22,277 nt of DNA from assembly GCA_964504565.1 (NCBI GenBank), contig CAZDEY010000007.1:16874-39150 (forward strand), read 5' to 3'. The position numbers were made by a program, and so were the translations under genes. Source of the stretch: an uncultured Roseivirgaceae bacterium (GTDB taxonomy: Bacteria; Bacteroidota; Bacteroidia; Cytophagales; Cyclobacteriaceae). Positions 1-18,270 of the stretch are shown one piece after another; positions within the stretch are counted from its first letter, which is position 1; every line of letters starts with the position of its first letter. The notes below the pieces were generated by a model. The model ran no database searches. It worked only from the letters and a program-made list of their open reading frames with translations, and was not told the origin of the DNA.

Positions 1-1
1 T

Positions 2-1183
2 GTAACTCGTGCGCCTGAAGGCTCAGAGTATCGAGATTTTAACGGTGATGCAAATAACATTTTGTTGGAAGATAATTTGTATGATCCTAATGTGGATAGG
101 GGGGTGTTTTACTTTAGTAATACATCACTATCAAATGCTTATGACGGTAACATTAATAACTTAGGAGGGTATATTTCTGGTGAGTTTGCATTTACTGATA
201 AGATTAAAGCAATTGTTGGAGGCAGGGTAGAAAACTATAATCAATATTATACCGGAAGAAATCAAGCTGCTAATACCCCGGATAACCCTGATGGAATTAT
301 ATATGATAATGAAAATGTATTAAGTTCAACTAAATTTTTTCCATCCGCCAGCTTAAATTTAGCAACCTCAGAGCTTTCTAACCTACGTTTATCGTACGCT
401 AAAACTATTGCTAGACCTTCTTTTAAAGAAAAATCAAACGTAGAAATAATTGACGTAATTTCAGGAAGGGGCTTTGTAGGCAATATTGATTTGATAGAAA
501 CTGACATCCAAAATTATGATATCCGTTGGGAAGGTTTTTGGGAGAGAGCCCAAACAATTAGTATTGGCGCCTTCTATAAGACTTTTAGAAACCCAATTGA
601 ACTAGTAAGGCAAACTGCTGACGTTACTCAAATTAGGCCTGAGAACGTAGGTGATGCTTATATAGTAGGGGTGGAGTTAGAAACTAGAAAAGATTTTAAC
701 TTTATTTCTCCGTTTATGCAACGTTTTTCATTAGTAACCAACCTTACACTTACTCAAGCAGAAGTGGAAAGAAACGCTGAAGAGTTAGCAGGTAAAGAAG
801 AGTTTCTTAAGGAAGGCGAAGAGTTAGAAACTAAGCGCGACTTTGTTGGGCAAGCACCATACATTCTGAATACTTCAATCAACTATGTAGACTTTGAGAG
901 TGGATTAGAAGGTAGTATTGCGTATAATGTTCAAGGTTCCACCTTAGCTGTAGTAGGGGCTAACCGAGCGCCTGATACTTATACCGTTCCATTTAATAGT
1001 CTTAACTTTACACTCTCAAAAAGATTCGGTGAAGGACAGAGGAATAAAATAGGAGCAAAGGTTACTAATATTTTGGATGATGATAAGGAACAAATTTTTA
1101 CCTCTTTTAGGAGTGATGATTTCTTAGAATATTTTAGAAGCCCCGGTAGAACATTTGGCCTAAGTTATTCGCGAACGTTTTAA
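2..1183 (+). CDS. TonB-dependent outer-membrane receptor, C-terminal beta-barrel portion. The CDS is 5'-truncated by the window edge: the frame stays open upstream of the annotated Met at 62 back to nt 2.
   Basis: There is no in-frame stop between nt 2 and 62. The sequence has the alternating hydrophobic/polar, Asn/Tyr/Gly/Thr-rich composition typical of OM beta-barrels. It ends ...GLSYSRTF with a terminal Phe, the canonical C-terminal aromatic of TonB-dependent receptors/OMPs. A rho-independent terminator follows. Confidence 0.6.
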   Translation, partial: VTRAPEGSEYRDFNGDANNILLEDNLYDPNVDRGVFYFSNTSLSNAYDGNINNLGGYISGEFAFTDKIKAIVGGRVENYNQYYTGRNQAANTPDNPDGIIYDNENVLSSTKFFPSASLNLATSELSNLRLSYAKTIARPSFKEKSNVEIIDVISGRGFVGNIDLIETDIQNYDIRWEGFWERAQTISIGAFYKTFRNPIELVRQTADVTQIRPENVGDAYIVGVELETRKDFNFISPFMQRFSLVTNLTLTQAEVERNAEELAGKEEFLKEGEELETKRDFVGQAPYILNTSINYVDFESGLEGSIAYNVQGSTLAVVGANRAPDTYTVPFNSLNFTLSKRFGEGQRNKIGAKVTNILDDDKEQIFTSFRSDDFLEYFRSPGRTFGLSYSRTF

Positions 1184-1188
1184 TTCTC

Positions 1189-1261
1189 AAACCCCTCCCA
1201 TAACCGGAGGGGTTTTTTTTATTTAACCTTTGTTCTGTTCAGTAGTTATTTGGCCAGATAT
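1189..1261 (+). repeat. Copy 1 of a ~72-bp direct repeat (terminator plus 45 bp ATTTAACCTTTGTTCTGTTCAGTAGTTATTTGGCCAGATAT)
   Basis: Near-identical to 2760..2830. The only differences are one T fewer in the T-run of copy 2 and one G/T substitution. Confidence 0.9.
1192..1220 (+). terminator. Rho-independent terminator (CCCCTCC-cataacc-GGAGGGG followed by T8)
   Basis: Perfect 7-bp GC stem plus a U-run directly after the TAA of the receptor gene; read from the sequence. Confidence 0.75.
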
Positions 1262-1632
1262 ATCGTACATGTAATTTGCGATTGTTATGAGATAGAGTAC
1301 TAATCTCATACATCTTCCATATACACTTTAAGCAATCTATTTTCTCTCGAAAACGTAGCTAGTACTTTATTCGAAATGGCAGAAAGTCCCAGCTTTTGGT
1401 AGCATATTTAATGTGTATATATTAAAACAAGCTTGTCGAAATTAATAGTTTCAAACTTATTAATAATCAAAGATGGACATATATTTATTGAATTTTCATG
1501 AATTAAACAAATAATTATGTTCTATAATTCATAATTTGGTATATGTTATAACAATTAATATATAGATAATATATGCTTAACTGATCCTACATTTTTATTA
1601 GGCAATTTAGGAGTACAACTAAACTAATCATT

Positions 1633-2748
1633 ATGATAAGAAAACTATGGATTTTTGTTGTGGTAATAGCCTTTTCCGCAGCATGTGAGATTGAAGATGT
1701 TGATAAGTCTGAAAACGAAGGCTTTGAACTAATTGAGTTGGTAGAAACAAATGAGGTAGTACGGAAACTGTTGGCAATGGGCTTTAAGCATGAGGCAATT
1801 CAGGATATTAGTTCACACTATCTTGTAGAAGGCGATATACTTTTTTCAAAAGATATTGAAGATTACAAAGTGCCTAAGAATGCTCAATACAGAACAAATT
1901 ATTTGGTGGACGATCAGTATGTTGTAATTAAAGTTGGAGTTGATCCATCAATACCATTTTCAGGGGTTGATGATTGGAGGTCAGAAATATATCAAGCATT
2001 ACAAGATTGGAGTAATATAATTGACTGTAAGATATTTTTTGTTAGTTATAATGACAATCCAGATATATTAATTAGAGCGAGTAATGTTACAGATAACTTG
2101 CCAAATAATGTAATTGCCGCAGCTGGTTTTCCGTTCCTAAATGGAAAACCATACAGTGAAATTATTATTAACCTAAATTTTAGCAATAATAAAACAGTTT
2201 CTACTGGCAGCAAACGCTATAATATGGTTCACGAGCTTGGACATTGTATTGGCTTTAGGCATACAAACTGGCAAATTAGAGGAGAATCAAGTGGTAGTGT
2301 AGGTGCTGTATGGGTGCCTGGCACACCTACTGGATCTGATGCTAGTTCAGTTATGAATGCAGGCACAGCTAATAATACTTGGAATGGTTTTTCTCCATAT
2401 GATATGAGTGCTGTAAAATATTTATATCCCGAAGATAATTGTTCGTTAGGATTGGCAGGTCCGGCAGAGGGAGATTGTGCATACAAAGTGCCTGATGAAG
2501 AAGAGACAAGGAAAACATATAGTGTCTTCGTAATAGGAGGTTCTAGTCCAGCAGGAACTGGTTTTTGGTCAGTAACCGGTAGCGAGATAGAAATAGTTTC
2601 TTATACGACAAGTAGTTGCAAAATTAGAGTTAAGTCTAACATAACTAATTGGCCAGCTACAGGAACTGTAAATTATATTAAAGGAAGTTGTGTTACGCCT
2701 TACAGTGTAGTTCTTGATAATTGCATAGATAATTCTTATACAGATTGA
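1633..2748 (+). CDS. Secreted zinc metalloprotease lipoprotein of the metzincin type (HELGHCIGFRH = HExxHxxGxxH); candidate peptidase M57 'HEIGH' family
   Basis: The N-terminal signal peptide ends in the lipobox FSAAC. The extended zinc-binding motif HELGHCIGFRHTNW is read directly from the translation. The C-terminal third is Cys-rich (at least 8 Cys), consistent with an exported disulfide-bonded domain. The gene is strongly AT-rich relative to downstream genes. Confidence 0.65.
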   Translation: MIRKLWIFVVVIAFSAACEIEDVDKSENEGFELIELVETNEVVRKLLAMGFKHEAIQDISSHYLVEGDILFSKDIEDYKVPKNAQYRTNYLVDDQYVVIKVGVDPSIPFSGVDDWRSEIYQALQDWSNIIDCKIFFVSYNDNPDILIRASNVTDNLPNNVIAAAGFPFLNGKPYSEIIINLNFSNNKTVSTGSKRYNMVHELGHCIGFRHTNWQIRGESSGSVGAVWVPGTPTGSDASSVMNAGTANNTWNGFSPYDMSAVKYLYPEDNCSLGLAGPAEGDCAYKVPDEEETRKTYSVFVIGGSSPAGTGFWSVTGSEIEIVSYTTSSCKIRVKSNITNWPATGTVNYIKGSCVTPYSVVLDNCIDNSYTD

Positions 2749-2759
2749 GAAATCTCTTG

Positions 2760-2830
2760 AACCCCTCCCATAACCGGAGGGGTTTTTTTATTTAACCTTT
2801 GTTCTGTTCAGTAGTTATTTTGCCAGATAT
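2760..2830 (+). repeat. Copy 2 of the ~72-bp direct repeat; it runs into the ATG (2829) of the downstream epimerase gene
   Basis: Aligns base-for-base with 1189..1261 apart from one indel in the T-run and one substitution. Confidence 0.9.
2762..2789 (+). terminator. Rho-independent terminator (second copy of the CCCCTCC/GGAGGGG hairpin, followed by T7)
   Basis: Same hairpin as 1192..1220, located immediately after the TGA of the metalloprotease gene. Confidence 0.75.
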
Positions 2831-3746
2831 GGCATATAAAGTAGTAATTAGTGGCGGCTCCGGCTTGGTTGGCACCCGCCTAACCCAGCTTCTGCAACAA
2901 TTAGGGTATCAGGTAGCCCACCTTAGCCGCTCAGTAAAAGAAAATGACGGCGTTCAGTACTATCTCTGGGATATGGAAACCGGACAAATAGAACCCGGCG
3001 CCCTGGACAATGCAACCGCTATAATTAACCTGGCCGGCGCCGGCGTGGCCGACCACCGCTGGACACCTAGGTATAAACAAGAAATACTAAACAGCCGGGT
3101 AGCCGGTACCGACCTTTTGGTACGCCAAATGGCCAACATGAAGCAAAAGCCCGATGTATTCATATCGGCCTCGGCAGTAGGCTACTACGGCGAAAATGCC
3201 GGTAATCAATACCACACCGAGGATTCGGAACCGGGTGAAGATTTTCTGGCCCAGGTCTGCCACGCTTGGGAAGACGCCGCCCTTAAAGCCGAAGCCCAGC
3301 ATAACATACGCACCGTAATTCCGCGCATAGGCATAGTGCTTACTCCTAAGGGCGGGGTGCTAAAAGAAATGCACCTTCCTTTCCGTTTAGGCTTAGGGGC
3401 GCCCTTGGGTAGCGGAGATCAGGTTATGAGCTGGATTCACCTGGATGACCTGTGCTACATAATTATAATGATGATGCAGGAAGAAAACTTTAGAGGTGTA
3501 TACAATGCCGTGGCCCCGCAGCCGCTTAGCAATAAAGATTTTTCGGTACAGTTAGCTGAGGTTATGCAAAAGCCGTTTTTTGCCCCCAAAATTCCATCCA
3601 TTGCAATAAAAACTGCCTTAGGTAGTCAGCGAGCCGCTATAGCATTGGGGGGTCAAAAAGTGTCTTCGAAAAAAGTAGAAGAAGCCGGCTACGTTTTCCG
3701 TTATCCGCACCTAACCCCGGCCTTACACAACCTACTCCGGAAGTAG
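2829..3746 (+). CDS. yfcH: TIGR01777 / YfcH-like epimerase-family protein (SDR-type Rossmann N-terminus, DUF1731-type C-terminus)
   Basis: Begins MAYKVVISGGSGLVGTRL with a GxxGxxG dinucleotide-binding motif. Length (~305 aa) and overall pattern match the YfcH family. The upstream Met at 2799 lies inside the duplicated terminator repeat, so 2829 is the preferred start. Confidence 0.75.
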   Translation: MAYKVVISGGSGLVGTRLTQLLQQLGYQVAHLSRSVKENDGVQYYLWDMETGQIEPGALDNATAIINLAGAGVADHRWTPRYKQEILNSRVAGTDLLVRQMANMKQKPDVFISASAVGYYGENAGNQYHTEDSEPGEDFLAQVCHAWEDAALKAEAQHNIRTVIPRIGIVLTPKGGVLKEMHLPFRLGLGAPLGSGDQVMSWIHLDDLCYIIIMMMQEENFRGVYNAVAPQPLSNKDFSVQLAEVMQKPFFAPKIPSIAIKTALGSQRAAIALGGQKVSSKKVEEAGYVFRYPHLTPALHNLLRK

Positions 3747-3823: not shown

Positions 3824-4816
3824 ATGGCGAAGAAAAGCTCCAACGGACAGGATAACCAAGAAAAAGCCACAAATACTGATAAGCAAGTAGATAACAACCC
3901 TATTACGCAAAAAACTGCTCCTAAAAAGCAACATAAAACTGTAGTAGCGGAAGAAACCAGTGCTGAAACCGCTCACAAAGAAAAAATTGCCAAAGATGGT
4001 CATCCGCACCATCCTATTGATAAAGGTGCCGCAAAGAAAAAACGCAAGGCCAATATACCACCGGTAAGCCCCAACGAAGATCAGGAGGTGGTAACTAAAA
4101 CCAATGACTCTGAGGATGAGCATCTGATCCGCAAAGCATTTGTAGACCGCGACTGGAACGAAATTCGCAGCTCCAACAGCTGGGCTATTTTCAAGGTAAT
4201 GTCGGAGTTTGTAGAAGCGTTCGAGAAACTGGCCAAAATAGGACCGTGCGTTTCTATTTTTGGTTCGGCCCGTACTAAAGAAGACCATAAGTACTACAAG
4301 ATGGCCGAAGAAATTGCGGCTAAACTGGTACGCCACGGCTACGGTGTAATAACCGGCGGTGGCCCGGGTATTATGGAAGCTGGTAATAAAGGTGCGTATA
4401 ACGAAGGCGGTAAATCGGTAGGTTTAAACATTGTGCTTCCGTTCGAGCAATTCGATAACCCCTATATAGATGCTGACAAACTTATAACTTTCGATCACTT
4501 CTTTGTGCGCAAGGTAATGTTTGTAAAGTACGCCCAGGGCTTTATTGTAATGCCAGGTGGGTTTGGTACTATGGATGAACTCTTTGAGGCTTTAACTCTA
4601 ATTCAAACCAAAAAAATCGGCCGTTTCCCCATTGTATTGGTAGGTAGCAGCTACTGGAAAGGCCTTTTCGACTGGATTAAAGACGTAATGCTGAAGGAAG
4701 AGAATAACGTTAACGCCGAAGATCTGGATCTGGTAAATATAGTTGATACCGCTGCTGAAGCCGTTAAAGTAATTGACGATTTTTACAGCAAGTATTTGCT
4801 TTCTCCTAACTTCTAG
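3824..4816 (+). CDS. LOG-family (TIGR00730, cytokinin riboside 5'-monophosphate phosphoribohydrolase-like) protein with a ~100-aa lysine-rich low-complexity N-terminal extension
   Basis: Conserved LOG motifs GGGPGIMEA and PGGFGTMDELFE are read from the translation. The N-terminal ~100 aa are K/E/T/Q-rich (e.g. AAKKKRKANIPPVSP) with no globular signature. The start could alternatively be an internal GTG. Confidence 0.8.
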   Translation: MAKKSSNGQDNQEKATNTDKQVDNNPITQKTAPKKQHKTVVAEETSAETAHKEKIAKDGHPHHPIDKGAAKKKRKANIPPVSPNEDQEVVTKTNDSEDEHLIRKAFVDRDWNEIRSSNSWAIFKVMSEFVEAFEKLAKIGPCVSIFGSARTKEDHKYYKMAEEIAAKLVRHGYGVITGGGPGIMEAGNKGAYNEGGKSVGLNIVLPFEQFDNPYIDADKLITFDHFFVRKVMFVKYAQGFIVMPGGFGTMDELFEALTLIQTKKIGRFPIVLVGSSYWKGLFDWIKDVMLKEENNVNAEDLDLVNIVDTAAEAVKVIDDFYSKYLLSPNF

Positions 4817-4842
4817 GCAGTTAATTTTTTTATCGAATATTG

Positions 4843-4890
4843 AAAGCCCAAGGTTAAATCGCATAAATGAATTGACCTTGGGCTTTCTAT
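4843..4890 (+). terminator. Candidate terminator hairpin (12-bp stem AAAGCCCAAGGT / ACCTTGGGCTTT, large loop, then CTATTTT)
   Basis: Perfect 12-bp inverted repeat 27 bp after the LOG stop codon. The large 20-nt loop lowers confidence. Confidence 0.45.
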
Positions 4891-4901
4891 TTTAGGTACA
4901 T

Positions 4902-5378
4902 ATGGGAAAGGAAAGGAAGATTAAAAGTCAACGTAAGGAAAGCTGGACTGCGCTGCGTGTAGAAGTTGCCAAGTCAATTCAGGCTAATCAATTAGATGTG
5001 ACTGAGGTATCTACAGGATTTAGTCAAATCATTGAAAGAATTATAGCTGAATCTACTATAAACCACGAGATTTTATCAAATAACTTAGCTTTCAGACTAA
5101 AAAATTCACACGTGCACTTTACGATATTTTTTACAAATATAACTGTTAGAGCCTATCTAGTCTTGGATGAAATAGTCAATGAGCAGAATAAATATTGGTT
5201 GTATGAGGGTACAGTTGGAGCCATGCAAGAACTTTTGAATAATGTATATTATGGAAAGTTTGTTTTAACTTCTAAGAAATATGACTGGGTACTGGGGTTT
5301 GACCAGCATGATATACTCATAGCAAAAGGAAGTATAGTTTCCAGAGTTGAGAGGCATAGGACTCAATTAGAATTATAG
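4902..5378 (+). CDS. Hypothetical protein (158 aa), AT-rich orphan ORF
   Basis: Clean ORF with an ATG and a basic N-terminus, but no recognisable motif. Its composition is markedly more AT-rich than the flanking LOG and regulator genes. Confidence 0.4.
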   Translation: MGKERKIKSQRKESWTALRVEVAKSIQANQLDVTEVSTGFSQIIERIIAESTINHEILSNNLAFRLKNSHVHFTIFFTNITVRAYLVLDEIVNEQNKYWLYEGTVGAMQELLNNVYYGKFVLTSKKYDWVLGFDQHDILIAKGSIVSRVERHRTQLEL

Positions 5379-6523: not shown

Positions 6524-6919
6524 ATGAATTGCTATTTCGATACCGTACAGCATTTCTTATTGGAGCTTGGCTGTGAAATAAGATTGGCAAATGAAGCAGA
6601 TGGACTATTTGTAGTGGATAATGAGGAGCGGGGCTTGCGGAATTTAGTTATTGGCTGCGCCGATCCAATCTTAATACTGGAACAGTTCATCTTCGAAATA
6701 AGTGAAGACCGACCAGAGGTATATAAAAGCCTTCTGGTAAAGAACCGCGACATGATTGCGGGTGCCTTTGTACTGGACGATACCGGCTCGCGCGTGCTGT
6801 TCCGCAATACCCTTCAGCTAGAAAACCTCGACCTGAACGAAATAGAAGGAACCTTTAACGCCCTTAGCCTAATGCTTAGCGAATACAGCGACGAGCTAAT
6901 CCGCTTCGCTAAAATGTAA
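6524..6919 (+). CDS. YjfI-like / DUF2170 (YbjN-fold) small protein, PspA-associated
   Basis: Acidic 131-aa protein immediately upstream of a 232-aa PspA-family gene. Size and position mirror the E. coli yjfI-yjfJ pair. The family assignment is from memory of that arrangement and was not computed. Confidence 0.5.
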   Translation: MNCYFDTVQHFLLELGCEIRLANEADGLFVVDNEERGLRNLVIGCADPILILEQFIFEISEDRPEVYKSLLVKNRDMIAGAFVLDDTGSRVLFRNTLQLENLDLNEIEGTFNALSLMLSEYSDELIRFAKM

Positions 6920-6930
6920 ATTTTAAGAAC

Positions 6931-6997
6931 CAAGAGTCAGGAATCAAGAATCAAGATTTTAAGCTTGATCTCAAGACTAGAGACTCAAGACTCAAGA
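6931..6997 (+). repeat. Array of five direct TCAAGA(C/A)T repeats plus one inverted copy, ending 9 bp before the pspA-like start codon
   Basis: TCAAGA occurs at 6944, 6951, 6971, 6985 and 6992. CTTGAT (the inverted form) is at 6964. Confidence 0.8.
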
Positions 6998-7005
6998 CTA
7001 AAACC

Positions 7006-7704
7006 ATGAACATTTTCTCAAGATTATTCAAGATTGGTCAGGCCGAGGCTCATTCCGGAGTAGATAAACTGGAAGACCCGATTAAAATGACCGAACAAGG
7101 CATCCGCGATATGAAGGAAGACCTTGACAAAAGCTTACACGCCCTGGCGGAAGTAAAAGCTATGGCCATCCGTGCCAGAAACGAAGCGGAACGCCACGGC
7201 GAAGCGGCTAAAGATTATGAACATAAGGCCATACAGCTACTAAAGAAAGCACAGGGCGGCGAAATGGATTCAGCCGAAGCCGACCGTTTAGCCGGCGAAG
7301 CTTTAGCTCGTAAAGAGCAAAACCAGAAGCTGGTAAGCAACAGTAAGCAGGAGGTAGAACGCTACGAAAAAAGCGTGGCTCAGTTAGAAGCGAACGTTCG
7401 CACCATAAAGAGCAATATTGGCAAGTGGGAGAACGAGCTTAAAACCCTTAAAGCCCGCGTAAAAGTAAGCGATGCTACCAAAAACCTGAACAAGCAACTG
7501 GCGCAGATCGACAGCAGCAGTACCGTAAGTATGCTGGAGCGTATGCGCGATAAGGTTGCCCAAGAAGAAGCCTTGGCCGAAAGCTACGGTGAAATTGCCA
7601 ACGAAAGCCGCAGTGTCGACGACGAAATTGACCGCGCCTTAGAAGACAACACCACCAAAGCCAACGAAGACCTGGCCGAACTAAAGAAGAAACTTGGGAT
7701 GTAG
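7006..7704 (+). CDS. PspA/IM30 (Vipp1/ESCRT-III-like) family protein, YjfJ-like (232 aa)
   Basis: N-terminus MNIFSRLFKIGQAEAHSGVDKLEDPIKMTEQGIRDMKEDLDK follows the PspA/YjfJ pattern. The protein is entirely alpha-helical, charged and coiled-coil, and has the same length as E. coli YjfJ. Confidence 0.85.
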   Translation: MNIFSRLFKIGQAEAHSGVDKLEDPIKMTEQGIRDMKEDLDKSLHALAEVKAMAIRARNEAERHGEAAKDYEHKAIQLLKKAQGGEMDSAEADRLAGEALARKEQNQKLVSNSKQEVERYEKSVAQLEANVRTIKSNIGKWENELKTLKARVKVSDATKNLNKQLAQIDSSSTVSMLERMRDKVAQEEALAESYGEIANESRSVDDEIDRALEDNTTKANEDLAELKKKLGM

Positions 7705-7707
7705 GAC

Positions 7708-7790
7708 GGCACGAAGTGCCAACCTAATTAGAAATTAGAAATTTAAAATTAGAAATGAAGGCCTAACTGAGTCTAAGTAATTTCTAATTC
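7708..7790 (+). repeat. Post-pspA structured region: GGCAC-gaa-GTGCC hairpin, three direct AATTAGAAAT repeats and an inverted copy (TAATTTCTAATT)
   Basis: Read directly from the sequence. It may act as a terminator or attenuator, but there is no classical GC stem plus U-run. Confidence 0.5.
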
Positions 7791-7868
7791 ATAAACGGTC
7801 CGCCGTTGCGGTCATAATTTTTAATTTTTTAACCAGGCACAAGCCACCAGCCACTAAGCACCAATACT

Positions 7869-8540
7869 ATGAAAGCCCTATTTGAATTTGCCATTGCCGG
7901 CGCCAACGTAATACCCACCCTGTTGCTAATATTCATCGTGATGTATTGGCTAACAGTATTGGTTGGCGCTATCGACATGGATGCCTTCGATATTGACTTG
8001 GATGTAGATGCGGATGTGGATGCGGATGCCGGTCCGGCCGATATTGATCTGGATTTGGGTGATGGGCACTCGGAAGGTGGGTTAGAGTGGCTGAATAGCC
8101 TGCTGAGGTTTTTCAATTTGGGAAGAATACCCCTGATGATATTTTTAACCTTCTTGATACTGCCGCTTTGGTTGTTCTGTATTATAGTCAATGATTTCTT
8201 CGGTTTTCATAGCCTGTTGCCCGGCTTGTTAACACTTATTGTAGGCTTTGTGGCGTGCATGTTTGTAGCCAAAGTGCTTACCATGCCTTTTGTAAAGCTT
8301 TTCGATAAGCTGGACGAAGACAAAAACTATAGTGCTATTGGTAAAATATGTGTGTTGAGAAGCTCAATAGCTGCCGGAAGGCTAGGGCAAGCCGAAGTAA
8401 TACGGAACGGTGGAGGCGCGCCAATTATCCTGACCGTTTGTGCACCCACCGGAGTTGACATCAGCCGCGGCGAAAAGGCCTTGGTGCTAGAACACCAACC
8501 CGAGCGTAGCTGCTACCTGATAGAACCGTTCAGTTTGTAA
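7869..8540 (+). CDS. NfeD-like / YqiJ-like (DUF1449-type) inner-membrane protein with an acidic DxD repeat segment and a C-terminal OB-fold
   Basis: N-terminal TM helix, acidic repeat DIDLDVDADVDADAGPADIDLDLGDG, additional TM helices, and a C-terminal beta-rich segment (GKICVLRSSIAAGRLGQAEVIRNGGGAPIILTVCAPTGVDISRGEKALVLE) typical of NfeD OB-folds. It precedes a flotillin gene, as in yqiJK. Confidence 0.7.
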   Translation: MKALFEFAIAGANVIPTLLLIFIVMYWLTVLVGAIDMDAFDIDLDVDADVDADAGPADIDLDLGDGHSEGGLEWLNSLLRFFNLGRIPLMIFLTFLILPLWLFCIIVNDFFGFHSLLPGLLTLIVGFVACMFVAKVLTMPFVKLFDKLDEDKNYSAIGKICVLRSSIAAGRLGQAEVIRNGGGAPIILTVCAPTGVDISRGEKALVLEHQPERSCYLIEPFSL

Positions 8541-12254: not shown

Positions 12255-15200
12255 ATGAGCAAAAATACTATACCTACACCCGAACAACCGCAGGATAATA
12301 ATCAGCTGGAAGGAGCATCGTACCAGATTCTGCAGAAGCGTTTGCTGGATGCTGCTGGTAGTTTGCGCGAGAAGCTGGCCGGGCTCAATGGTAGCCGTAA
12401 AGATATTTTCGGGGCGATAGAAACCAAATTGCTGGCCACCGAGCGCGTAAGTACTGAACACAACTGTGTAGCTCAGGATATGAGTCCGGTGGGCAAGAGG
12501 CCCGTGGGCGAAAGCTTTATCTTCGGCTACAACGTACAGATGGGCCTAAAGCAGGAAATGGATCTGGCCGATGTGTTTAGTATTTACCGCTACGAGGAAA
12601 AGAGCTTCCACCCGGAAACGCTGGATATACTAAAGCAGGGAAGTTTTGCCGAGGACTTCAAAAATCTGTATAAATACTATAAAGAAACCCGTTTTGTAAA
12701 GTTTGTCAAGCAAGGCGTTCACCTGCATATGGTGTTTCGCGTTGGCAAAAGCGAGGGCGATATAAAAACCTTTAAGTGGTTGCTGGAAGGCGATAGCCTA
12801 AAGTATATCGACAACCGGAGTGAACACGAAATTAAAACCCCGGCCCAACAAGAATTTCGCTGGAAAAAAACGACCCGCGATCAGCAGCGCGCCGGCCGCT
12901 TCCCGCACATCAGTATTGAAGATCGGGTGTTTGTGGAAACCCTGGGCGGCGACCTTACCATTAAAGTAGAAGACAATACCGAAAAAGGGCAGGGAATATA
13001 TACCGAACCGGTTGAGTTTCCAGACCAGACGCTGGATGATGCCGAGGTGTTCTACGCCTTACTGGATAACCTCACGGTACTTAAAGTAAGGCCGTATAAC
13101 GAGAAGGAGTGGCGCTATTTTGTCTATAATGCCAAGCTTCAGCAGGTAAAACGTATCGATAGCCTTGGCCAAGCAGCACTCTTATTGCCCGACGATCAGG
13201 GCTTGCTATTCCCGGATGGCTACTATCTGCAAACCGGTGAGTATAAGCGCTTCGATATGCCGGAAGGGAAAGCCATGCGCTTCGAAAAGCGAATTATCAG
13301 CCCCAATGGCGAAGACGTGCTGTTTGTATTCTTTAATGCAGCCGAAGGCTTGTATTTACTTCTGCCCTATAACCTGATTGAGCAGGAAATCGATACGCCA
13401 ATTTATTGCCACGGCTACTCTATTTTCGAGAACGGCGAAATGCTCTTCTTCCGCGGCGATGATGAGCCCACCCGCCACCATACCATCCAGATTTGGCAGA
13501 CTCCCTACGTTGGGCCAAACTACCAGATGGGGCAGGCTAACGACAGTTACTTATTCAAAATTGGTAATAAAGAAGTGGTGCGCGCTATGGCCGAGGCTAA
13601 TCAGCTTATTGGCCTGCTGGAAAAAGAAGATAATTATGCCGGCCTGTACCACGACCTGATAAAATCAGCCACCGCCCTATTAGACCACTACCACTGGCTA
13701 GGCCATGCCGAAGCTTATGAGCTGGAAACTCCGCTAAGGTTGGTTAGGCAAACGGCCAATTCGGCGCTGGATGAATTTGAAAAAGTACGCAGCATAAAGA
13801 AAAGCACCGAGGAGCAAACGGGCAAAACCTTAAGCGAGGCCGACGGACTATTGCGCAACATTAAGCGCGAACGACCGCGCCACATCCTGGATTTTGTAGC
13901 CCAGCTTAACGCGTTGCGTAGGCTTAGAGGTGAAGTTATATCGCTGAAAGACTTGCGCTACGTACAGCTTGCGCCGGTAGAAGGTGCCGAGCAGTTGCTA
14001 AAAGATGCTGCCGATAGCGTAGCCCGGGCCTGCGTACGTTTTCTACTTCAGGATGATGCCCTGCAGCCCTACCAACAAAAACTAGATGAACTTGGACAGC
14101 AGGTAGAAAAGGCACCAAAAGTAGCCGAACTAAATGCCTTGCTGGAAGAGGCCGATACCCTGGCCGGCGAACTGGAAATGCTGTTGGAGGTAGTGGGTAA
14201 TCTAAAAATTGAAGATGCTACCCAGACCACGCAGATAATTGATAACGTTTCGGCTTTGTACGCCGGACTGAACGCCACGCGTACCCGCCTGCGCAACCGC
14301 AAAAAAGAACTGCAGCGCGCGGAAGGGGCCGCTGAATTCTCGGCGCAGCTAAAATTGGTTGACCAGAGCGTAATAAACTACCTGGATGTGTGCGATACGC
14401 CGGCCAAGGTAGAAGAATACCTGACCCGCGTAATGGTGCAGCTGGAAGAGTTAGAAGGTAAGTTTTCGGAGTTTGATGAGTTTCTGGATAAGCTGGCAAC
14501 CAAGCGCGAGGAGGTATATGCTGCTTTCGAGAACAAAAAGGTTGCCCTGACCGAAGCCCGAAACAAACGTGCGGTAACGCTGCATGGCGCCGGTGAGCGT
14601 ATTATTAGCGCAGTAAAAAGCCGTTTAGGTAGGTTTAAAGAGGTTAACGAAATTAATGGCTACCTAGCGGGTGACCTGATGGTGGAAAAGCTGCGTGGCA
14701 TTATTGCCGATCTGCAGGAGTTAGGCGATACCGTAAAATCCGACGACCTAAAGAGCCAGTTACAGGCTCTGCGCGATGAGAGCTTGCGCCAGCTTAAGGA
14801 TAGAAAGGAACTTTATGCCGATGGCGAAAACACTATTAAGTTCGGAAAGTGGATATTTAGTGTAAATAAGCAGCCACTGGAGCTGACCACACTTCTGCGC
14901 CCTGATGGTTGGTACTACCACCTGACCGGTACGGCCTATTTTGAAAAGATAAAAGCCGATAGCCTGAAGGGTACCGAAGCTGTGTGGCAGCAAAATCTGG
15001 TATCGGAAAACGAGCAGGTATACCGGGCGGAATACTTAGCGTATCAATTCCTGAAATCGGTGCGGGAAGGTAAGCTGGAAACCAGCCTGACCGAATTGCA
15101 GCAATTTACTATCGATGAACTGTTAACTGCTGTGCAAAAGTTCTCGGCCGGCCGCTTCGATGAGGGTTACGTAAAGGGCGTGCACGATAAAGATGCCGCG

Positions 15201-17207
15201 CGTTTGCTTACCCACTTACTGACAATGGAAAGTACCGTGGGCTTGCTTAAATACGCCCCACCAACCCGTACGCTGGCGCATATTGGCTGGCTGGTGTTTA
15301 TGCCGAAATCTACGCGCGAAGCGCTGGAAGGGCAACTGACCGGTGCCGGTGAAATCTTGAAGGTATTCCCATCGGCAAACGGCTTTGCGTCGGTGCGCAA
15401 TCAGTTAGAAAAGCACTTGGTACAGTTTGCCGAGGAAACCGAACTGTTCTTAGCTGAAGAAGCCTTTGAGGCCGCCCAGTACTTATTTGAAGCCCTAAGT
15501 GGAGCCGGATTTGTAGTAGATAACTTTGCTATGCAGCTAAAAGAACAGTTTTTAGCTGACTTGAAGAAGAACGGTGGCCTAAACGCTTTCGAAAGCAGTA
15601 TTAAAAAGCTGCAGGACCAGCCCGCCGCAGCCTATAGCTTGCTAAGGCAATGGGCCGGGGCCTGGCTAGAGAGCGCAGAGGCAGAGAATTTCTGGCTCGA
15701 TGAACTGGCCAGTTTGCTATGGCCGGAACTTCGCGATACGCTACAGAATGCGGTAAATGTCAACTTGAGCGATACCATTCAGGAAATGGCCGGTGAGCAC
15801 GCGCTTATTCGGGAGCAACAATATAAGCTGGGCTATCACCAATTCTGGCACAAGCTACAGCAACACGAAAGTACGACGGTGCCACTGTATCGTCAGCTAA
15901 CCCAGGCTAAAAAGCTACTGATAAAAGAAGGGGCAGAAAACCTTCGTCTGGAAGAATTTAAGCCGCGCGTAATGAGTTCTTTCGTACGGAATAAGCTGAT
16001 AGATGAGGTTTACCTGCCACTAATCGGCGCTAACCTGGCCAAGCAAATAGGTACCGCCGGCGATACCAGCCGCGTTGACCGCCAGGGTATGCTTTTGCTG
16101 ATTTCGCCTCCGGGTTACGGTAAAACCACTTTAATGGAATACCTGGCTGATCGCCTGGGGCTTATCTTCATGAAGATTAACGGCCCGGCCATTGGCCACG
16201 ATATTACCTCTATTGACCCGAGCGAAGCTAAAAATGCCGGTGCGCGTCAAGAGTTAGAAAAGCTTAACCTAAGCTTTGAAATGGGCGACAACGTGATGAT
16301 TTATCTGGATGATATTCAGCACTGTAATCCGGAGTTTCTGCAGAAGTTTATCAGCTTGTGCGATGGGCAGCGAAAAATAGAAGGTATCTGGAAGGGTAGA
16401 AGCAAGACTTATGACTTCAGAGGTCGCCGCGTGGCGGTAGTAATGGCGGGTAACCCCTATACCGAAAGCGGCGAAAAATTCCGTATACCGGATATGCTGG
16501 CCAACCGAGCCGACATTTACAACCTAGGCGACATTCTGGGCGATAGCGATACCGCCTTCAAACTTAGTTATTTGGAAAACAGCTTTACGGCTAACCCGGC
16601 TGTGGCGCGCATTGCCACTAAAAGCCATAAAGATGCCGTAGCCATAATCAAAATGGCAATGCACGGCGAAAACCAGGCCGAAACTCCGCAGTGGGAAGCC
16701 AATCACGACCCTAGCGAAATTAGCGAGGCCGTTAGCGTACTAAAGAAGTTGCTGAAAATTCGCGATGTGGTGCTGCGCGTGAACGAGGAATATATTCATT
16801 CGGCCGGCCAGGCCGATGAATACCGTACCGAACCCGCCTTTAAGCTGCAGGGTAGCTACCGAAATATGAATAAGTTGGGTGAAAAAGTAGCCCCGGTTAT
16901 GAATGAGCAGGAACTTGATACCTTAATTCTAAGCCACTACGAAAGCGAGGCGCAGACCTTAACCACCGGTGCTGAAGCCAACTTGCTCAAGTTTAAAGAC
17001 ATGATGAACTGGCTGAGCCAGGAGGAAAAGGAACGTTGGGCCGATATAAAAGCCATTTTTAAGAAGCAGCAGCAACTAAAAGGCCTGGGCGGCAACCATA
17101 TGGCACAGCTTATGGCGCAGGTAGAAAATGTAAGCCACGCGCTGTACGGCATAAGAGCCGCACTGGCAGCGGGTTCCAAGTTGAACGGCGTGGAGAAGGA
17201 AAAATAG
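12255..17207 (+). CDS. Giant (1650 aa) protein with a C-terminal MoxR/AAA_5-class AAA+ ATPase core and a ~1250-aa beta-rich plus coiled-coil N-terminal region; function unknown
   Basis: Walker A LLISPPGYGKTTLMEYLA is at nt ~16113. The Walker-B/AAA_5 box VMIYLDDIQHCNPEFLQKFISLCDG is at nt ~16293. The sensor-1 element VAVVMAGNPY is present, as is the Arg-finger-like DMLANRADIYNLGD; these are the conserved signatures of MoxR/McrB/dynein-type AAA_5 modules. N-terminal residues ~130-560 show repeated beta-strand blocks (VLKVRPYNEKEWRYFVYN, VLFVFFNAAEGLYLLLPYNL, YSIFENGEMLFFRGDDE) that suggest a propeller-like domain. Residues ~780-1000 are coiled-coil. The ORF is uninterrupted. Confidence 0.7.
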   Translation: MSKNTIPTPEQPQDNNQLEGASYQILQKRLLDAAGSLREKLAGLNGSRKDIFGAIETKLLATERVSTEHNCVAQDMSPVGKRPVGESFIFGYNVQMGLKQEMDLADVFSIYRYEEKSFHPETLDILKQGSFAEDFKNLYKYYKETRFVKFVKQGVHLHMVFRVGKSEGDIKTFKWLLEGDSLKYIDNRSEHEIKTPAQQEFRWKKTTRDQQRAGRFPHISIEDRVFVETLGGDLTIKVEDNTEKGQGIYTEPVEFPDQTLDDAEVFYALLDNLTVLKVRPYNEKEWRYFVYNAKLQQVKRIDSLGQAALLLPDDQGLLFPDGYYLQTGEYKRFDMPEGKAMRFEKRIISPNGEDVLFVFFNAAEGLYLLLPYNLIEQEIDTPIYCHGYSIFENGEMLFFRGDDEPTRHHTIQIWQTPYVGPNYQMGQANDSYLFKIGNKEVVRAMAEANQLIGLLEKEDNYAGLYHDLIKSATALLDHYHWLGHAEAYELETPLRLVRQTANSALDEFEKVRSIKKSTEEQTGKTLSEADGLLRNIKRERPRHILDFVAQLNALRRLRGEVISLKDLRYVQLAPVEGAEQLLKDAADSVARACVRFLLQDDALQPYQQKLDELGQQVEKAPKVAELNALLEEADTLAGELEMLLEVVGNLKIEDATQTTQIIDNVSALYAGLNATRTRLRNRKKELQRAEGAAEFSAQLKLVDQSVINYLDVCDTPAKVEEYLTRVMVQLEELEGKFSEFDEFLDKLATKREEVYAAFENKKVALTEARNKRAVTLHGAGERIISAVKSRLGRFKEVNEINGYLAGDLMVEKLRGIIADLQELGDTVKSDDLKSQLQALRDESLRQLKDRKELYADGENTIKFGKWIFSVNKQPLELTTLLRPDGWYYHLTGTAYFEKIKADSLKGTEAVWQQNLVSENEQVYRAEYLAYQFLKSVREGKLETSLTELQQFTIDELLTAVQKFSAGRFDEGYVKGVHDKDAARLLTHLLTMESTVGLLKYAPPTRTLAHIGWLVFMPKSTREALEGQLTGAGEILKVFPSANGFASVRNQLEKHLVQFAEETELFLAEEAFEAAQYLFEALSGAGFVVDNFAMQLKEQFLADLKKNGGLNAFESSIKKLQDQPAAAYSLLRQWAGAWLESAEAENFWLDELASLLWPELRDTLQNAVNVNLSDTIQEMAGEHALIREQQYKLGYHQFWHKLQQHESTTVPLYRQLTQAKKLLIKEGAENLRLEEFKPRVMSSFVRNKLIDEVYLPLIGANLAKQIGTAGDTSRVDRQGMLLLISPPGYGKTTLMEYLADRLGLIFMKINGPAIGHDITSIDPSEAKNAGARQELEKLNLSFEMGDNVMIYLDDIQHCNPEFLQKFISLCDGQRKIEGIWKGRSKTYDFRGRRVAVVMAGNPYTESGEKFRIPDMLANRADIYNLGDILGDSDTAFKLSYLENSFTANPAVARIATKSHKDAVAIIKMAMHGENQAETPQWEANHDPSEISEAVSVLKKLLKIRDVVLRVNEEYIHSAGQADEYRTEPAFKLQGSYRNMNKLGEKVAPVMNEQELDTLILSHYESEAQTLTTGAEANLLKFKDMMNWLSQEEKERWADIKAIFKKQQQLKGLGGNHMAQLMAQVENVSHALYGIRAALAAGSKLNGVEKEK

Positions 17208-17214
17208 TAACTAG

Positions 17215-17694
17215 ATGAAACATTTGATTGAGTTTGACGCTGGGAAGCTTCTCCCGTTTCATTTTATTTTGGCGGGTACAATCCTCCTATTCTTTGGTGT
17301 AGTTGCCTTACTATATAGCCCCTTTGCCGGAATATTGTTTGGCTTATTAGGCTTACTTATACTTACCGCAAAAAGGGGGGTAGATATTGATTTTGCGAAA
17401 AAGATTTATCGGGAATATCACTCTTTTTATTGGATTAAAACTGGCAAGTGGTCGCCTTTTAATTCAGTGGTTAAGCTGTACATAAACCCGGTTAAGATGA
17501 GTCAGCGAATGAGCAATTTGGCTTCAAGTAGCACTATTCATAGTAATGAGTACAAGGCTTACTTGAAATTCAATAATGAAGACAAAGTATATTTGTTGTC
17601 AGGTAAAAAAATAAAAGTTTTAGAGGAAAAATTAACTCCCCTGGCAGCTAGCTTGGGTTTGAGCATAACTGATAATTCTAAGCTGTTTAGTTAA
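17215..17694 (+). CDS. Small membrane protein (2 N-terminal TM helices plus a ~105-aa cytoplasmic domain), translationally coupled to the giant ATPase gene
   Basis: The ATG lies 7 bp after the giant-gene stop. TM segments are LPFHFILAGTILLFFGVVALLY and FAGILFGLLGLLILTA. The gene is AT-rich. Confidence 0.55.
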   Translation: MKHLIEFDAGKLLPFHFILAGTILLFFGVVALLYSPFAGILFGLLGLLILTAKRGVDIDFAKKIYREYHSFYWIKTGKWSPFNSVVKLYINPVKMSQRMSNLASSSTIHSNEYKAYLKFNNEDKVYLLSGKKIKVLEEKLTPLAASLGLSITDNSKLFS

Positions 17695-17705
17695 ATTAAA
17701 TATGT

Positions 17706-18266
17706 ATGAACAAACTCTTAACCAAATTAAAATTAGTTGACTACCATGAGTTTACTCTGCCGGTAGACAAAAATCATTTGGTAAACAAACTAAAAGCTAA
17801 TGTAGACCGAGGTAGTACTTCTAATTTTCTATCAGGGCTTGAAATGTTTTCATCCAGTAAGAACGAGTATAAAGGTGAAGTGCTGGCTGATTCATTTCAT
17901 TTAAGGAAGCGACCTAAAATGTTCGATATGAACAGTATGACATCGGCTAAAGCTAAAGGTATACTAAACGAGGTTGCCAATGGAACTCAGGTAAATTTAG
18001 AAATTAATGGCTTTACTGGGCAGTTCAAGCCATTTTTGATCCTTGTGCCTATAATTTATATAATTTTCATAATAGCCTTTTTGAGTTCGGATACTTTTCC
18101 AGCATTTGGGTTAGTGTTTATACTGGTGCATGGAGTATTTATGTTAGGAATGCCCTATATGTTCATGCGAAGAAGCATTAGCCGCCTGAAGTATGATATA
18201 GAAAGAGATATGTACTATATGGTAAGAAATGATTTATCAACTTCAACCAATAAAATTCAAGCATAA
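17706..18266 (+). CDS. Membrane protein (~108-aa N-terminal soluble domain plus 2 C-terminal TM helices)
   Basis: The start is 11 bp after the previous stop. TM segments are FKPFLILVPIIYIIFIIAFLS and FPAFGLVFILVHGVFMLGMPYMF. No recognisable motif. Confidence 0.5.
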   Translation: MNKLLTKLKLVDYHEFTLPVDKNHLVNKLKANVDRGSTSNFLSGLEMFSSSKNEYKGEVLADSFHLRKRPKMFDMNSMTSAKAKGILNEVANGTQVNLEINGFTGQFKPFLILVPIIYIIFIIAFLSSDTFPAFGLVFILVHGVFMLGMPYMFMRRSISRLKYDIERDMYYMVRNDLSTSTNKIQA

Positions 18267-18270
18267 TTTT

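What the first reader, a model, noticed from the sequence alone, without database searches (positions are those of the whole stretch)
1189..2830. AT-rich metalloprotease cassette bracketed by a duplicated 72-bp terminator-containing segment
Seen in sequence: the 72 bp following the receptor gene (terminator hairpin plus ATTTAACCTTTGTTCTGTTCAGTAGTTATTTGGCCAGATAT) recur almost base-for-base after the protease gene. The second copy ends in the ATG of the yfcH-like gene. The 1.5 kb between the copies comprises a 450-bp very AT-rich leader plus a lipoprotein metzincin gene, and it is much more AT-rich than yfcH. Inference: identity this long, running into a start codon, is unlikely to be convergent terminator evolution. 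It points to a duplicative insertion or cassette-swap event that placed the protease gene between the receptor and yfcH. Such an event could arise by recombination at the terminator segment or by a tandem duplication whose internal gene was later replaced. The flanking repeat could mark a recombination hotspot for accessory secreted-protein cassettes.
Basis: partly seen in the sequence, partly recalled or inferred. Interest (0 to 1): 0.55.

Follow-up and report, generated by a model that had tools for sequence, protein, structure and literature searches.

The report
Protease gene inserted between duplicated intergenic spacers
A secreted metalloprotease gene was slotted into the short spacer between an outer-membrane receptor gene and a housekeeping gene in a Cytophagales bacterium, copying the whole 72-base spacer so that one copy lies on each side; this is a real but fairly ordinary trace of gene gain at a variable chromosomal site.

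Summary
Window 1190-1261 and 2760-2830 are 72- and 71-nt direct repeats that differ by one substitution and one T in the T-run. They occur only twice in 30.6 kb, and the same sequence appears in three independently assembled samples.

The unit is the complete receptor-YfcH intergenic region: a Rho-independent terminator hairpin plus a 41-nt leader that ends in the AT of YfcH's ATG.

- **Relatives:** the frame PALP | beta-helix lipoprotein -> TonB receptor -> YfcH is ancestral. The receptor-YfcH gap is empty in L017. In L015 it holds 4.4 kb of other genes. The closest relative, L007 (YfcH 84% identical), has one orthologous copy of the unit and no protease.
- **Timing:** the two copies are 97% identical, against 78-81% to that orthologue, so the duplication is recent.
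- **Correction 1:** AT-richness does not single out the protease. The receptor and beta-helix genes have the same atypical codon usage.
- **Correction 2:** in other Bacteroidota, M57 homologues sit in a conserved receptor/beta-helix/M57 cluster, so the cargo is functionally matched to its neighbours.

No recombinase, tRNA or terminal inverted repeats are present, and the insertion mechanism is unresolved. The closest analogue is the PeSL terminator/promoter module of T4-type phages. Interest is modest.

The parts
1..1183 (+). 3' part of a TonB-dependent receptor gene. The full gene encodes 951 aa (L001 6696-9551) with CarboxypepD_reg, Plug and beta-barrel domains.
   Evidence: Pfam PF00593. 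Full gene and its domains in L001. Positional orthologues, 55% identical, in L015 and L017.
1190..1261 (+). Copy A of the intergenic unit (72 nt). Terminator hairpin at 1190-1214, T-run to 1220, 41-nt leader-like tail at 1221-1261. This is the derived copy.
   Evidence: At the one substituted site, copy A carries G where copy B and L007 both carry T.
1262..1632 (+). 371-bp AT-rich leader (25.6% GC) that arrived with the protease gene and presumably carries its promoter.
   Evidence: It contains no remnant of YfcH, the Por_Secre_tail gene, the beta-helix gene, the receptor or LuxE, and shows no similarity to the spacers upstream of M57 homologues. No Rfam family matches. No canonical Bacteroidetes TAnnTTTG motif was found.
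1633..2748 (+). Peptidase_M57 lipoprotein zinc metalloprotease, 371 aa, intact.
   Evidence: Pfam PF12388, 85.8 bits against a cut-off of 21. Lipobox Cys18, HELGHCIGFRH, the SVMN Met-turn and four C-terminal cysteines are invariant in an alignment with six homologues. The nearest homologues are 42-48% identical.
2749..2759 (+). 11-nt spacer between the M57 stop codon and copy B. This is the right end of the unique inserted segment.
2760..2830 (+). Copy B of the intergenic unit (71 nt). This is the ancestral copy, orthologous to L007 1841-1911. It ends in the AT of the YfcH start codon.
   Evidence: Nucleotide homology with L007 begins at the base of the hairpin (window 2760, aligned by blastn to L007 1840).
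2829..3746 (+). YfcH-type epimerase-family oxidoreductase (TIGR01777), 305 aa. Core gene at 51% GC.
   Evidence: Pfam Epimerase and DUF1731. TIGR01777, 329.6 bits against a cut-off of 207. 84% identical to the L007 orthologue.
3824..4898 (+). LOG-family gene (3824-4816) and its terminator hairpin (4831-4898). This is the right end of the block conserved with L007.
   Evidence: (inverted repeat I2).

Best explanation
A 1,498-bp segment was inserted, recently and only in this lineage, into the ~78-bp spacer that ancestrally joined the receptor gene to yfcH. The segment consists of a 371-bp AT-rich leader, an intact M57 lipoprotein metalloprotease gene, and 11 nt.

The insertion duplicated essentially the whole spacer, from the base of the receptor's terminator hairpin to the AT of yfcH's ATG. 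One copy now lies on each side of the insert.

Shown:
- the repeat and its sharp ends;
- the ancestral receptor-yfcH adjacency;
- copy B is the orthologous copy;
- the copies are far more alike than orthologues are;
- the gap is variable between lineages.

Inferred consequences:
- The receptor keeps its terminator, the protease acquires one, and yfcH keeps its native 5' leader, so the gain disturbs neither neighbour's regulation.
- The two 72-nt direct repeats make the cassette removable by RecA-type recombination. That would restore the ancestral junction exactly and release a circle carrying the gene plus one unit.

Inferred origin, with low confidence in the enzymology: recombination that used the shared spacer as homology. 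This could be Campbell-type integration of a circle or an unequal exchange between population variants, analogous to PeSL cassettes of T4-type phages. A transposase or integrase is unlikely. A staggered break 72 nt apart followed by fill-in, or a replicative template switch at the hairpin, would give the same product.

The cargo is functionally matched to its neighbours: in other Bacteroidota, M57 homologues are linked to TonB-receptor and beta-helix lipoprotein pairs.
For: - **Repeat is real and bounded:**
- **Same structure in three samples:**
- **Ancestral frame:** L017 and L018 have beta-helix -> receptor -> 164 bp -> YfcH. L015 has PALP | beta-helix -> receptor -> four other genes -> YfcH. 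Orthology is 47-69%.
- **Closest relative:** L007 has one orthologous unit directly before yfcH and no M57. Homology with the window starts at the hairpin base.
- **Recent duplication:** copies 97.2% identical versus 78-81% to the orthologue; leader part 40 of 41 versus 31 of 42.
- **No mobility machinery:** no integrase, transposase or tRNA in the 30.6 kb examined, and no terminal inverted repeats.
- **Functional terminator shape:**
- **Intact cargo:**
- **M57 linked to receptor/beta-helix clusters in three other lineages:**
- **A recombinase-free precedent:** PeSL cassettes excise as mini-circles by recombination between flanking copies (PMC2839356).
Against: - No truly close strain with receptor, a single identical unit and yfcH was found. 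The empty site (L017) is at family-level distance and has an unrelated terminator. In L007 the genes to the left of the unit are non-orthologous (31-36% identity).
- M57 shares the atypical codon usage of the receptor and beta-helix genes (GC3 0.23, 0.27 and 0.26; RSCU correlation 0.74-0.85 within the trio versus 0.47-0.62 with core genes). A single import of the whole block is therefore not excluded.
- A homologous-integration route needs a progenitor circle that already carried the unit, and none was observed.
- No promoter motif was found in the unit, so the parallel with PeSL is structural only.
- Only 30.6 kb of the genome could be examined for further copies. Two scans of the metagenome collection returned nothing.
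Confidence: 0.72

Rival explanations
1. Block import. The whole low-GC segment (beta-helix, receptor, M57; about 6.4 kb) replaced the ancestral beta-helix/receptor pair in one homologous-replacement event from a lower-GC relative that already had M57 downstream of the receptor. Copy A arose separately, by conversion or a second event.
For: The three genes have one shared, atypical codon usage (GC3 0.23-0.27; mutual RSCU correlation 0.74-0.85), distinct from core genes (GC3 0.43-0.55). The compositional boundaries fall at the PALP|beta-helix spacer and at copy B, not between the receptor and M57. M57 homologues are linked to receptor/beta-helix pairs elsewhere.
Against: - It does not explain copy A, a 97%-identical duplicate of this lineage's own yfcH leader sitting inside the supposed import. 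An extra event is still required.
- The beta-helix and receptor proteins are no more diverged from their L015 and L017 orthologues than YfcH is.
- The beta-helix gene also has lower GC3 than its neighbours in L015 and L017, so part of the bias belongs to the gene class.
- None of the receptor's 120 best homologues shares a longest-contig length with any listed M57 homologue. This is my own comparison of the contig-length columns, an indirect check.
Confidence: 0.13
2. Ancient arrangement with loss elsewhere. M57 flanked by two units is ancestral to the window and L007 lineages. L007 lost it by recombination between the repeats, and the near-identity of the two copies is maintained by gene conversion.
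For: Direct repeats of 72 nt would allow exactly such a deletion. L007 carries a single unit. In L012 the two terminators flanking M57 are also more alike than their orthologues are, which hints at concerted evolution.
Against: L015 and L017 also lack M57 in the gap. The genes left of the unit in L007 are a different receptor/lipoprotein pair, so a simple deletion does not convert one arrangement into the other. Conversion between 72-nt tracts is expected to be inefficient.
Confidence: 0.06
3. Generic dispersed terminator module. The 72-nt unit is a REP- or MITE-like element that occurs behind many genes, and the two copies here are independent members of that family.
For: It contains a strong hairpin. 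The genome outside 30.6 kb could not be examined.
Against: Only two copies occur in 30.6 kb containing about 25 intergenic regions. The only other strict-criteria terminator hairpin found in the window (about 20110) is unrelated. The unit runs exactly to yfcH's ATG and has a positional orthologue in L007. Neither scan of the metagenome collection found a match.
Confidence: 0.06
4. Assembly artefact: a chimeric join or a strain mixture collapsed at a short repeat.
For: The source is a metagenome assembly.
Against: Three independent sample assemblies give the identical sequence across both junctions. The copies are distinguishable by two differences. At 72 nt, the repeat is shorter than a read.
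Confidence: 0.02

Closest known systems
PeSL (promoter-early stem-loop) regulatory cassettes of T4-type phages (Arbiol et al. 2010, PMC2839356; Comeau et al. 2014, PMC4122927)
   Same: A short composite intergenic motif that contains a terminator stem-loop and flanks a non-essential gene as direct repeats. No dedicated recombinase is involved. Recombination between the flanking copies would excise the gene plus one motif as a circle. Variable genes are gained, lost or replaced at such sites.
   Different: PeSLs are multi-copy families concentrated in phage hyperplastic regions and contain a strong sigma-70 promoter. Here there are only two copies, in a bacterial chromosome. The order is terminator then leader. 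No promoter motif was detected. No circles have been demonstrated.
Minimal mobile elements of Neisseria. The concept is recalled from my own knowledge (Saunders and Snyder 2002). The term appears in PMC3787668 and PMC3082526, which one search listed but I did not read.
   Same: A site between conserved flanking genes holds different gene cassettes, or none, in different lineages. There are no mobility genes, and exchange is presumed to occur by homologous recombination in the flanks.
   Different: Minimal mobile elements are defined within one naturally transformable species and are not characterised by duplication of the intergenic region. Here the comparison is between genera or families, and a 72-nt duplication brackets the cargo.
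Campbell-type (single-crossover) homologous integration, as seen with suicide plasmids
   Same: The product has the inserted DNA flanked by direct repeats of the homology segment, with no target specificity beyond that homology.
   Different: No vector backbone or circular progenitor is evident. The homology segment would be only about 72 nt.
Receptor / beta-helix / Por_Secre_tail / M57 gene cluster of low-GC Bacteroidota
   Same: An M57 lipoprotein protease, 42-47% identical over its full length, is co-oriented with a CarboxypepD_reg-Plug TonB receptor and a Beta_helix_4 lipoprotein. A very AT-rich spacer precedes M57.
   Different: The gene order differs: receptor -> beta-helix -> small T9SS-tail protein -> M57 there, versus beta-helix -> receptor -> M57 here. 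The receptor and beta-helix proteins are only 25-36% identical to the window's, so they are paralogous pairs. The window has no Por_Secre_tail gene or remnant of one.

Membership tests
Peptidase family M57 (Pfam PF12388) | Match to the family profile above the curated threshold | tested here: met
   85.8 bits against a cut-off of 21, covering profile positions 14-212 of 212.
Peptidase family M57 (Pfam PF12388) | Zinc-binding HExxHxxGxxH motif and Met-turn | tested here: met
   H200-E201-L-G-H204-C-I-G207-F-R-H210 and S239-V-M241-N are invariant across 7 aligned sequences.
PeSL-type mobile regulatory cassette | Composite intergenic motif with a terminator stem-loop, flanking a variable gene as direct repeats | tested here: met
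   The cargo is absent from relatives.
PeSL-type mobile regulatory cassette | Consensus promoter within the motif | tested here: not met
   There is no sigma-70-like site within 1190-1261 or 2760-2830, and no Bacteroidetes TAnnTTTG motif in 1100-2900. This is a motif-based test only; transcription start sites are unknown.
PeSL-type mobile regulatory cassette | Many copies clustered in variable regions | tested here: inconclusive
   Two copies occur in 30.6 kb. The rest of the genome was not retrievable.
PeSL-type mobile regulatory cassette | Circular gene-plus-motif intermediates | not testable with these tools
   Needs reads or inverse PCR.
IS or transposon insertion with target-site duplication | Transposase gene and terminal inverted repeats, with a short (2-15 bp) duplication | tested here: not met
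   The insert encodes only M57. Its ends (1262... and ...2759) are not inverted repeats. The duplication is 72 nt.
Integrase-mediated genomic island (attL/attR) | Tyrosine or serine recombinase gene in or beside the element, with a tRNA or conserved-gene target | tested here: not met
   No recombinase domain was found in any gene of the window or L001. No tRNA or tmRNA gene is present.
Integron gene cassette | attC recombination site downstream of the cargo, and an IntI integrase with attI nearby | tested here: not met
   No integrase was found. The repeated unit is a simple terminator hairpin plus leader that is orthologous to a chromosomal spacer in L007. No formal attC model was run.
Minimal-mobile-element-type variable site | The same conserved flanking genes hold different cargo, or none, in different genomes, with no mobility genes | tested here: met
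   The gap is empty in L017 and L018, holds four other genes in L015, and holds M57 in the window. This was tested between genera, not within a species.
Dispersed REP/MITE-like repeat | Many copies at unrelated intergenic sites | tested here: inconclusive
   Only two copies occur in 30.6 kb, and there are no hits in the metagenome collection. The whole genome was unavailable.

The most novel reading that the evidence does not exclude
The terminator-plus-leader unit may be a bacterial chromosomal counterpart of phage PeSLs. In this reading it is a portable recombination module that, using only the host's homologous-recombination machinery, excises and re-integrates single secreted-protein genes as mini-circles at terminators. 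That would make the sites behind terminators general docking points for accessory genes in Bacteroidota.

Three hints point this way:
- In an unrelated low-GC lineage (L012-L014), the M57 homologue is also bracketed by two terminators that are more alike than their orthologues are.
- Between L011 and L012, the beta-helix gene has been replaced, and conservation resumes at the terminator.
- Both ends of the block conserved between the window and L007 coincide with terminator hairpins.
Probability: 0.1. Interest if true: 0.65.

Novelty: new member of a known kind. Interest (0 to 1): 0.3.

Why it matters
This is a clean, datable example of how a bacterial chromosome can gain a single accessory gene without any mobile-element machinery and without disturbing its neighbours. 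The whole spacer is copied, so every gene ends up with a terminator and the downstream gene keeps its native leader.

It also identifies the receptor-YfcH gap as a variable site for secreted proteins in this group of Cytophagales. And it shows that M57 proteases are repeatedly linked to TonB-receptor/beta-helix-lipoprotein pairs, which suggests a shared role in nutrient capture.

If terminator-containing units prove to act generally as recombination handles, as PeSLs do in T4-type phages, that would be of wider interest. The present data show only one clear case and one weak echo.

Tried and rejected
1. **Exact and degenerate scans for the unit in the metagenome collection.** No hits. The source samples are evidently not in that collection.
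2. **Genome-contig scan with YfcH.** Returned only distant actinobacterial hits, so no close species representative was found.
3. **Exact-protein look-ups of YfcH** (305 aa, the 315-aa TTG form, and P0001). Not on record. The 253-kb NCBI contig could not be retrieved, so no genome-wide copy count was possible.
4. **Is the AT-rich leader a decayed gene?** Candidates were the YfcH 5' end, the Por_Secre_tail gene of the M57 clusters, the beta-helix gene, the receptor and LuxE. Rejected: the best tblastn E-value was 0.17, and nucleotide matches were noise.
5. **Did the duplication once extend into yfcH or the receptor?** Rejected: flanks score at shuffle level.
6. **Does the unit carry yfcH's promoter and thereby supply one to M57?** No sigma-70-like or Bacteroidetes-type motif was found.
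7. **Transposon, integrase island, integron, tRNA target or known RNA element.** None found. The Rfam hits are sub-threshold terminator look-alikes.
8. **Flanking repeats around the different cargo in L015.** None found.
9. **AT-richness as evidence that only M57 is foreign.** Rejected, because the receptor and beta-helix genes share the same bias.
Full report
**1. The observation**

The sequence contains two direct repeats, 1190-1261 (72 nt) and 2760-2830 (71 nt). They match in 70 of 72 aligned columns. The only differences are G1253 versus T2822 and an 8-T versus 7-T run.

Searches with a 31-mer and a 25-mer from the unit, allowing up to 3 mismatches, find exactly these two sites in the 22.3-kb window, where dinucleotide shuffles expect none. 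The 8.4 kb further upstream in L001 adds no copy.

Identity ends abruptly. The 30-150 nt beyond each end align no better than shuffled sequence.

Each copy begins with a canonical intrinsic terminator: a 9-10 bp GC-rich stem AACCCCTCC/GGAGGGGTT, a 7-nt loop and a T-run. The segments containing it fold at about -20 to -22 kcal/mol. A 41-nt tail follows.

Copy B ends in the AT of the ATG at 2829-2831. This ATG is the real start of the YfcH-type gene, because the L007 orthologue starts MAYKVVISGG at the same place. Gene callers used a TTG at 2799 inside the repeat.

Between the copies lie 1,498 unique bases:
- the 371-codon protease gene;
- 11 nt.

Contigs from three different samples are 100% identical over the whole structure, so this is not an assembly artefact.

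**2. The genes**

- **Upstream gene:** the 3' end of a 951-aa TonB-dependent receptor with CarboxypepD_reg, Plug and barrel domains. In L001 it is preceded by a 570-aa Beta_helix_4 lipoprotein and a divergently oriented PALP-family gene.
- **Cargo:** an intact Peptidase_M57 lipoprotein (PF12388, 85.8 bits). Cys18, HELGHCIGFRH, the SVMN Met-turn and four C-terminal cysteines are invariant against six homologues.
- **Downstream genes:** a TIGR01777/YfcH oxidoreductase (329.6 bits), followed by a LOG-family gene.

**3. Comparison with relatives**

No close species representative exists in the genome collection. The best YfcH relatives are an identical protein on an unretrievable 253-kb NCBI contig and one 84%-identical protein, P0002. 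The next-best are about 55% identical, from Cesiribacter-like Cytophagales.

*L007, the contig carrying P0002.* It reads: receptor' 3' end, 139 bp, a 418-aa lipoprotein, a single terminator plus leader, yfcH, LOG.

- Its terminator plus leader is clearly orthologous to the window's unit, at 78-81% identity. The hairpin, TTTAACCTTT and GCCAGATATG are conserved, and the middle of the leader is variable.
- Nucleotide homology between L007 and the window starts at the hairpin base (window 2760, aligned by blastn to L007 1840). It runs through yfcH and LOG and stops just after the LOG terminator, at about 4898.
- Everything left of the hairpin differs. L007's receptor' and lipoprotein are only 31% and 36% identical to the window's receptor and beta-helix protein.
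- Copy B is therefore the ancestral copy, and L007 has neither a second copy nor an M57 gene.

*The receptor's own relatives.* The receptor's best homologues are 53-55% identical. Several sit on contigs of the same length as contigs carrying YfcH homologues, and fetching two of them settled the ancestral state.

- In L017 and L018 (a Cyclobacteriaceae MAG) the order is Beta_helix_4 -> receptor -> 164 bp -> YfcH. The site is empty.
- In L015 the order is PALP (opposite strand), a 259-aa gene, Beta_helix_4 -> receptor -> four other genes -> YfcH -> CDF -> LOG. The four genes span about 4.4 kb and include a 904-aa PKD/PA14 protein with a T9SS tail.
- Pairwise identities confirm positional orthology. 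Against L015: PALP 69%, beta-helix 57%, receptor 55%, YfcH 54%. Against L017: 48%, 55% and 47%.

Receptor-yfcH adjacency is therefore ancestral. The gap is a variable site, and M57 is a lineage-specific occupant.

**4. Age and direction of the duplication**

The two copies are 97.2% identical, while each is 78-81% identical to the L007 orthologue. In the 41-nt leader part the contrast is 40 of 41 versus 31 of 42.

The part that is free to vary between species is thus identical between the copies. This excludes convergent terminator evolution and dates the duplication well after the split from the L007 lineage, unless gene conversion has kept the copies alike. At the one substituted site, copy B and L007 share T, so the change occurred in copy A.

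**5. What the duplicated unit is**

The unit is essentially the whole ancestral spacer. It starts 6 nt after the receptor's stop codon, at the base of the hairpin, and ends inside yfcH's start codon.

The left edge coincides with the point where the window and L007 stop being homologous. That is expected if alleles of this variable site share only the sequence from the terminator rightwards. The single truly novel junction is then 1261|1262.

No terminal inverted repeats, transposase, integrase, tRNA or curated RNA family is present. The leader contains no recognisable remnant of any neighbouring or cluster gene.

**6.

*Composition does not single out the protease.* GC3 is 0.23 for M57, 0.27 for the receptor and 0.26 for the beta-helix gene, against 0.43-0.55 for core genes. 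Codon-usage correlation is 0.85 between M57 and the receptor, but 0.47 between M57 and the core.

The compositional island is therefore the whole beta-helix/receptor/M57 block, bounded on the right by copy B. Part of this bias belongs to the gene class: the beta-helix gene also has lower GC3 than its neighbours in L015 and L017. Even so, a one-step import of the whole block cannot be excluded, and I keep it as the main rival. It would still need a separate event to create copy A.

*M57 is not a random accessory gene.* Its nearest full-length homologues, at 42-48% identity, lie in three lineages of low-GC Bacteroidota. There they sit in a conserved cluster: two-component system | TonB receptor -> Beta_helix_4 -> small Por_Secre_tail protein -> M57 -> LuxE. 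A spacer of 17-20% GC precedes M57.

The window's beta-helix/receptor pair is a paralogous version of that pair, at 25-36% identity. The protease has therefore become linked twice, independently, to a receptor/beta-helix pair. This suggests functional coupling, perhaps surface proteolysis feeding TonB-dependent uptake. That is an inference.

**7. Mechanism**

*Shown:* a duplicative insertion into an ancestral spacer, with no mobility genes.

*Inferred consequences:*
- The receptor retains its terminator, M57 gains one, and yfcH retains its native leader.
- The 72-nt direct repeats allow precise RecA-type excision, which would release a circle carrying the gene and one unit.

*Origin:* I favour, with low confidence, recombination that used the shared spacer as homology. 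This could be Campbell-type integration of such a circle, or an unequal exchange between population variants.

The closest documented analogue is the PeSL system of T4-type phages. There, composite promoter/terminator motifs flank ORFans, recombination between flanking copies produces mini-circles, and no dedicated recombinase is involved (PMC2839356).

Two other routes give the same product and cannot be excluded:
- a break with ends staggered by 72 nt, followed by fill-in;
- a replicative template switch that leaves at the ATG and returns at the hairpin.

The unit fails one PeSL criterion, since no promoter motif was found in it. A second criterion, high copy number, could not be tested. This is therefore a structural analogy, not membership of the family.

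**8. Echoes elsewhere**

- In L012-L014 the terminators directly before and after the M57 homologue share 36 of 41 nt and an identical 8-bp stem. They are more alike than either is to its orthologue in L008 or L011.
- Between L011 and L012 the beta-helix proteins are only 32% identical, while the flanking genes are 72-83% identical. The terminator behind the beta-helix gene is nearly identical in the two loci.

These observations fit terminators acting as edges of exchangeable genes. They are also what one expects if variable genes simply sit between conserved flanks.

**9. Verdict**

The phenomenon is a lineage-specific, recombinase-free gene gain at a variable intergenic site, with a long target duplication. 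It is a new instance of a known kind of event, and the size and exactness of the duplication are somewhat unusual.

Interest is modest (0.3). It would rise substantially if read-level data showed active excision or circles, or if the unit or similar units turned out to flank many cassettes.

Noticed in passing
window 4817-5378 (LOG terminator 4831-4898; DUF6756 gene 4902-5378): A second lineage-specific low-GC gene (DUF6756; GC 0.35, GC3 0.31; codon usage like the receptor and M57) starts 4 nt after the LOG terminator. Homology with L007 ends just after that terminator, and L007 has unrelated sequence there. The conserved core from the unit to the LOG terminator is thus flanked on both sides by atypical genes.
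   Followed up: partly
L012 5834-5874 and 7142-7182 (the same in L013 and L014): The terminators immediately before and after the M57 homologue share 36 of 41 nt and an identical 8-bp stem (GCTCCAAT/ATTGGAGC). They are more alike than their orthologues in L008 and L011 are. This is a weaker parallel to the window's bracketing repeat.
   Followed up: partly
L008 1214-7119; L011 532-3480; L012 1292-7125: A conserved cluster in low-GC Bacteroidota: two-component system | TonB receptor -> Beta_helix_4 lipoprotein -> ~113-aa Por_Secre_tail protein -> M57 protease -> LuxE-family gene. Within it, the beta-helix gene of L011 is only 32% identical to those of L008 and L012, while its neighbours are 67-89% identical. 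This looks like gene replacement, with conservation resuming at the terminator.
   Followed up: partly
L001 4892-11116 (window 1-2748 plus upstream): The beta-helix, receptor and M57 genes form one 6.4-kb compositional island (GC3 0.23-0.27) in a genome whose core genes have GC3 0.43-0.55. The positional orthologues in L015 and L017 are much less deviant.
   Followed up: partly
window 2799-2828: Automatic gene calls start the YfcH gene at a TTG inside repeat copy B, giving a 315-aa product. The conserved ATG at 2829 gives the 305-aa protein seen in relatives. This is an annotation pitfall created by the duplicated leader.
   Followed up: yes
window 6524-8540 and 12255-18648: Downstream lie a CesT/YbjN-like gene, a PspA/IM30 gene, a 1,650-aa DUF3686 ('ATPase involved in DNA repair') / DUF7902 / AAA protein, several small genes with no family match, and a TerB-domain protein. 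This may be a stress- or defence-type cluster.
   Followed up: no
L007 961-970: The only moderately close relative is a 4.1-kb scaffold with a 10-N gap inside its 418-aa lipoprotein gene. Its left end stops inside a receptor gene, so it cannot be told whether its receptor'/lipoprotein pair is cargo in the same gap or a replacement of the beta-helix/receptor pair.
   Followed up: no
window versus JGI contig Ga0450804_1614738 (L001, L006): By coordinates, the window runs about 41 nt past the end of the 39,140-bp JGI contig. It therefore probably derives from the 253,673-bp NCBI contig that carries the identical YfcH and M57 proteins (P0001, P0121). That contig could not be fetched.
   Followed up: no
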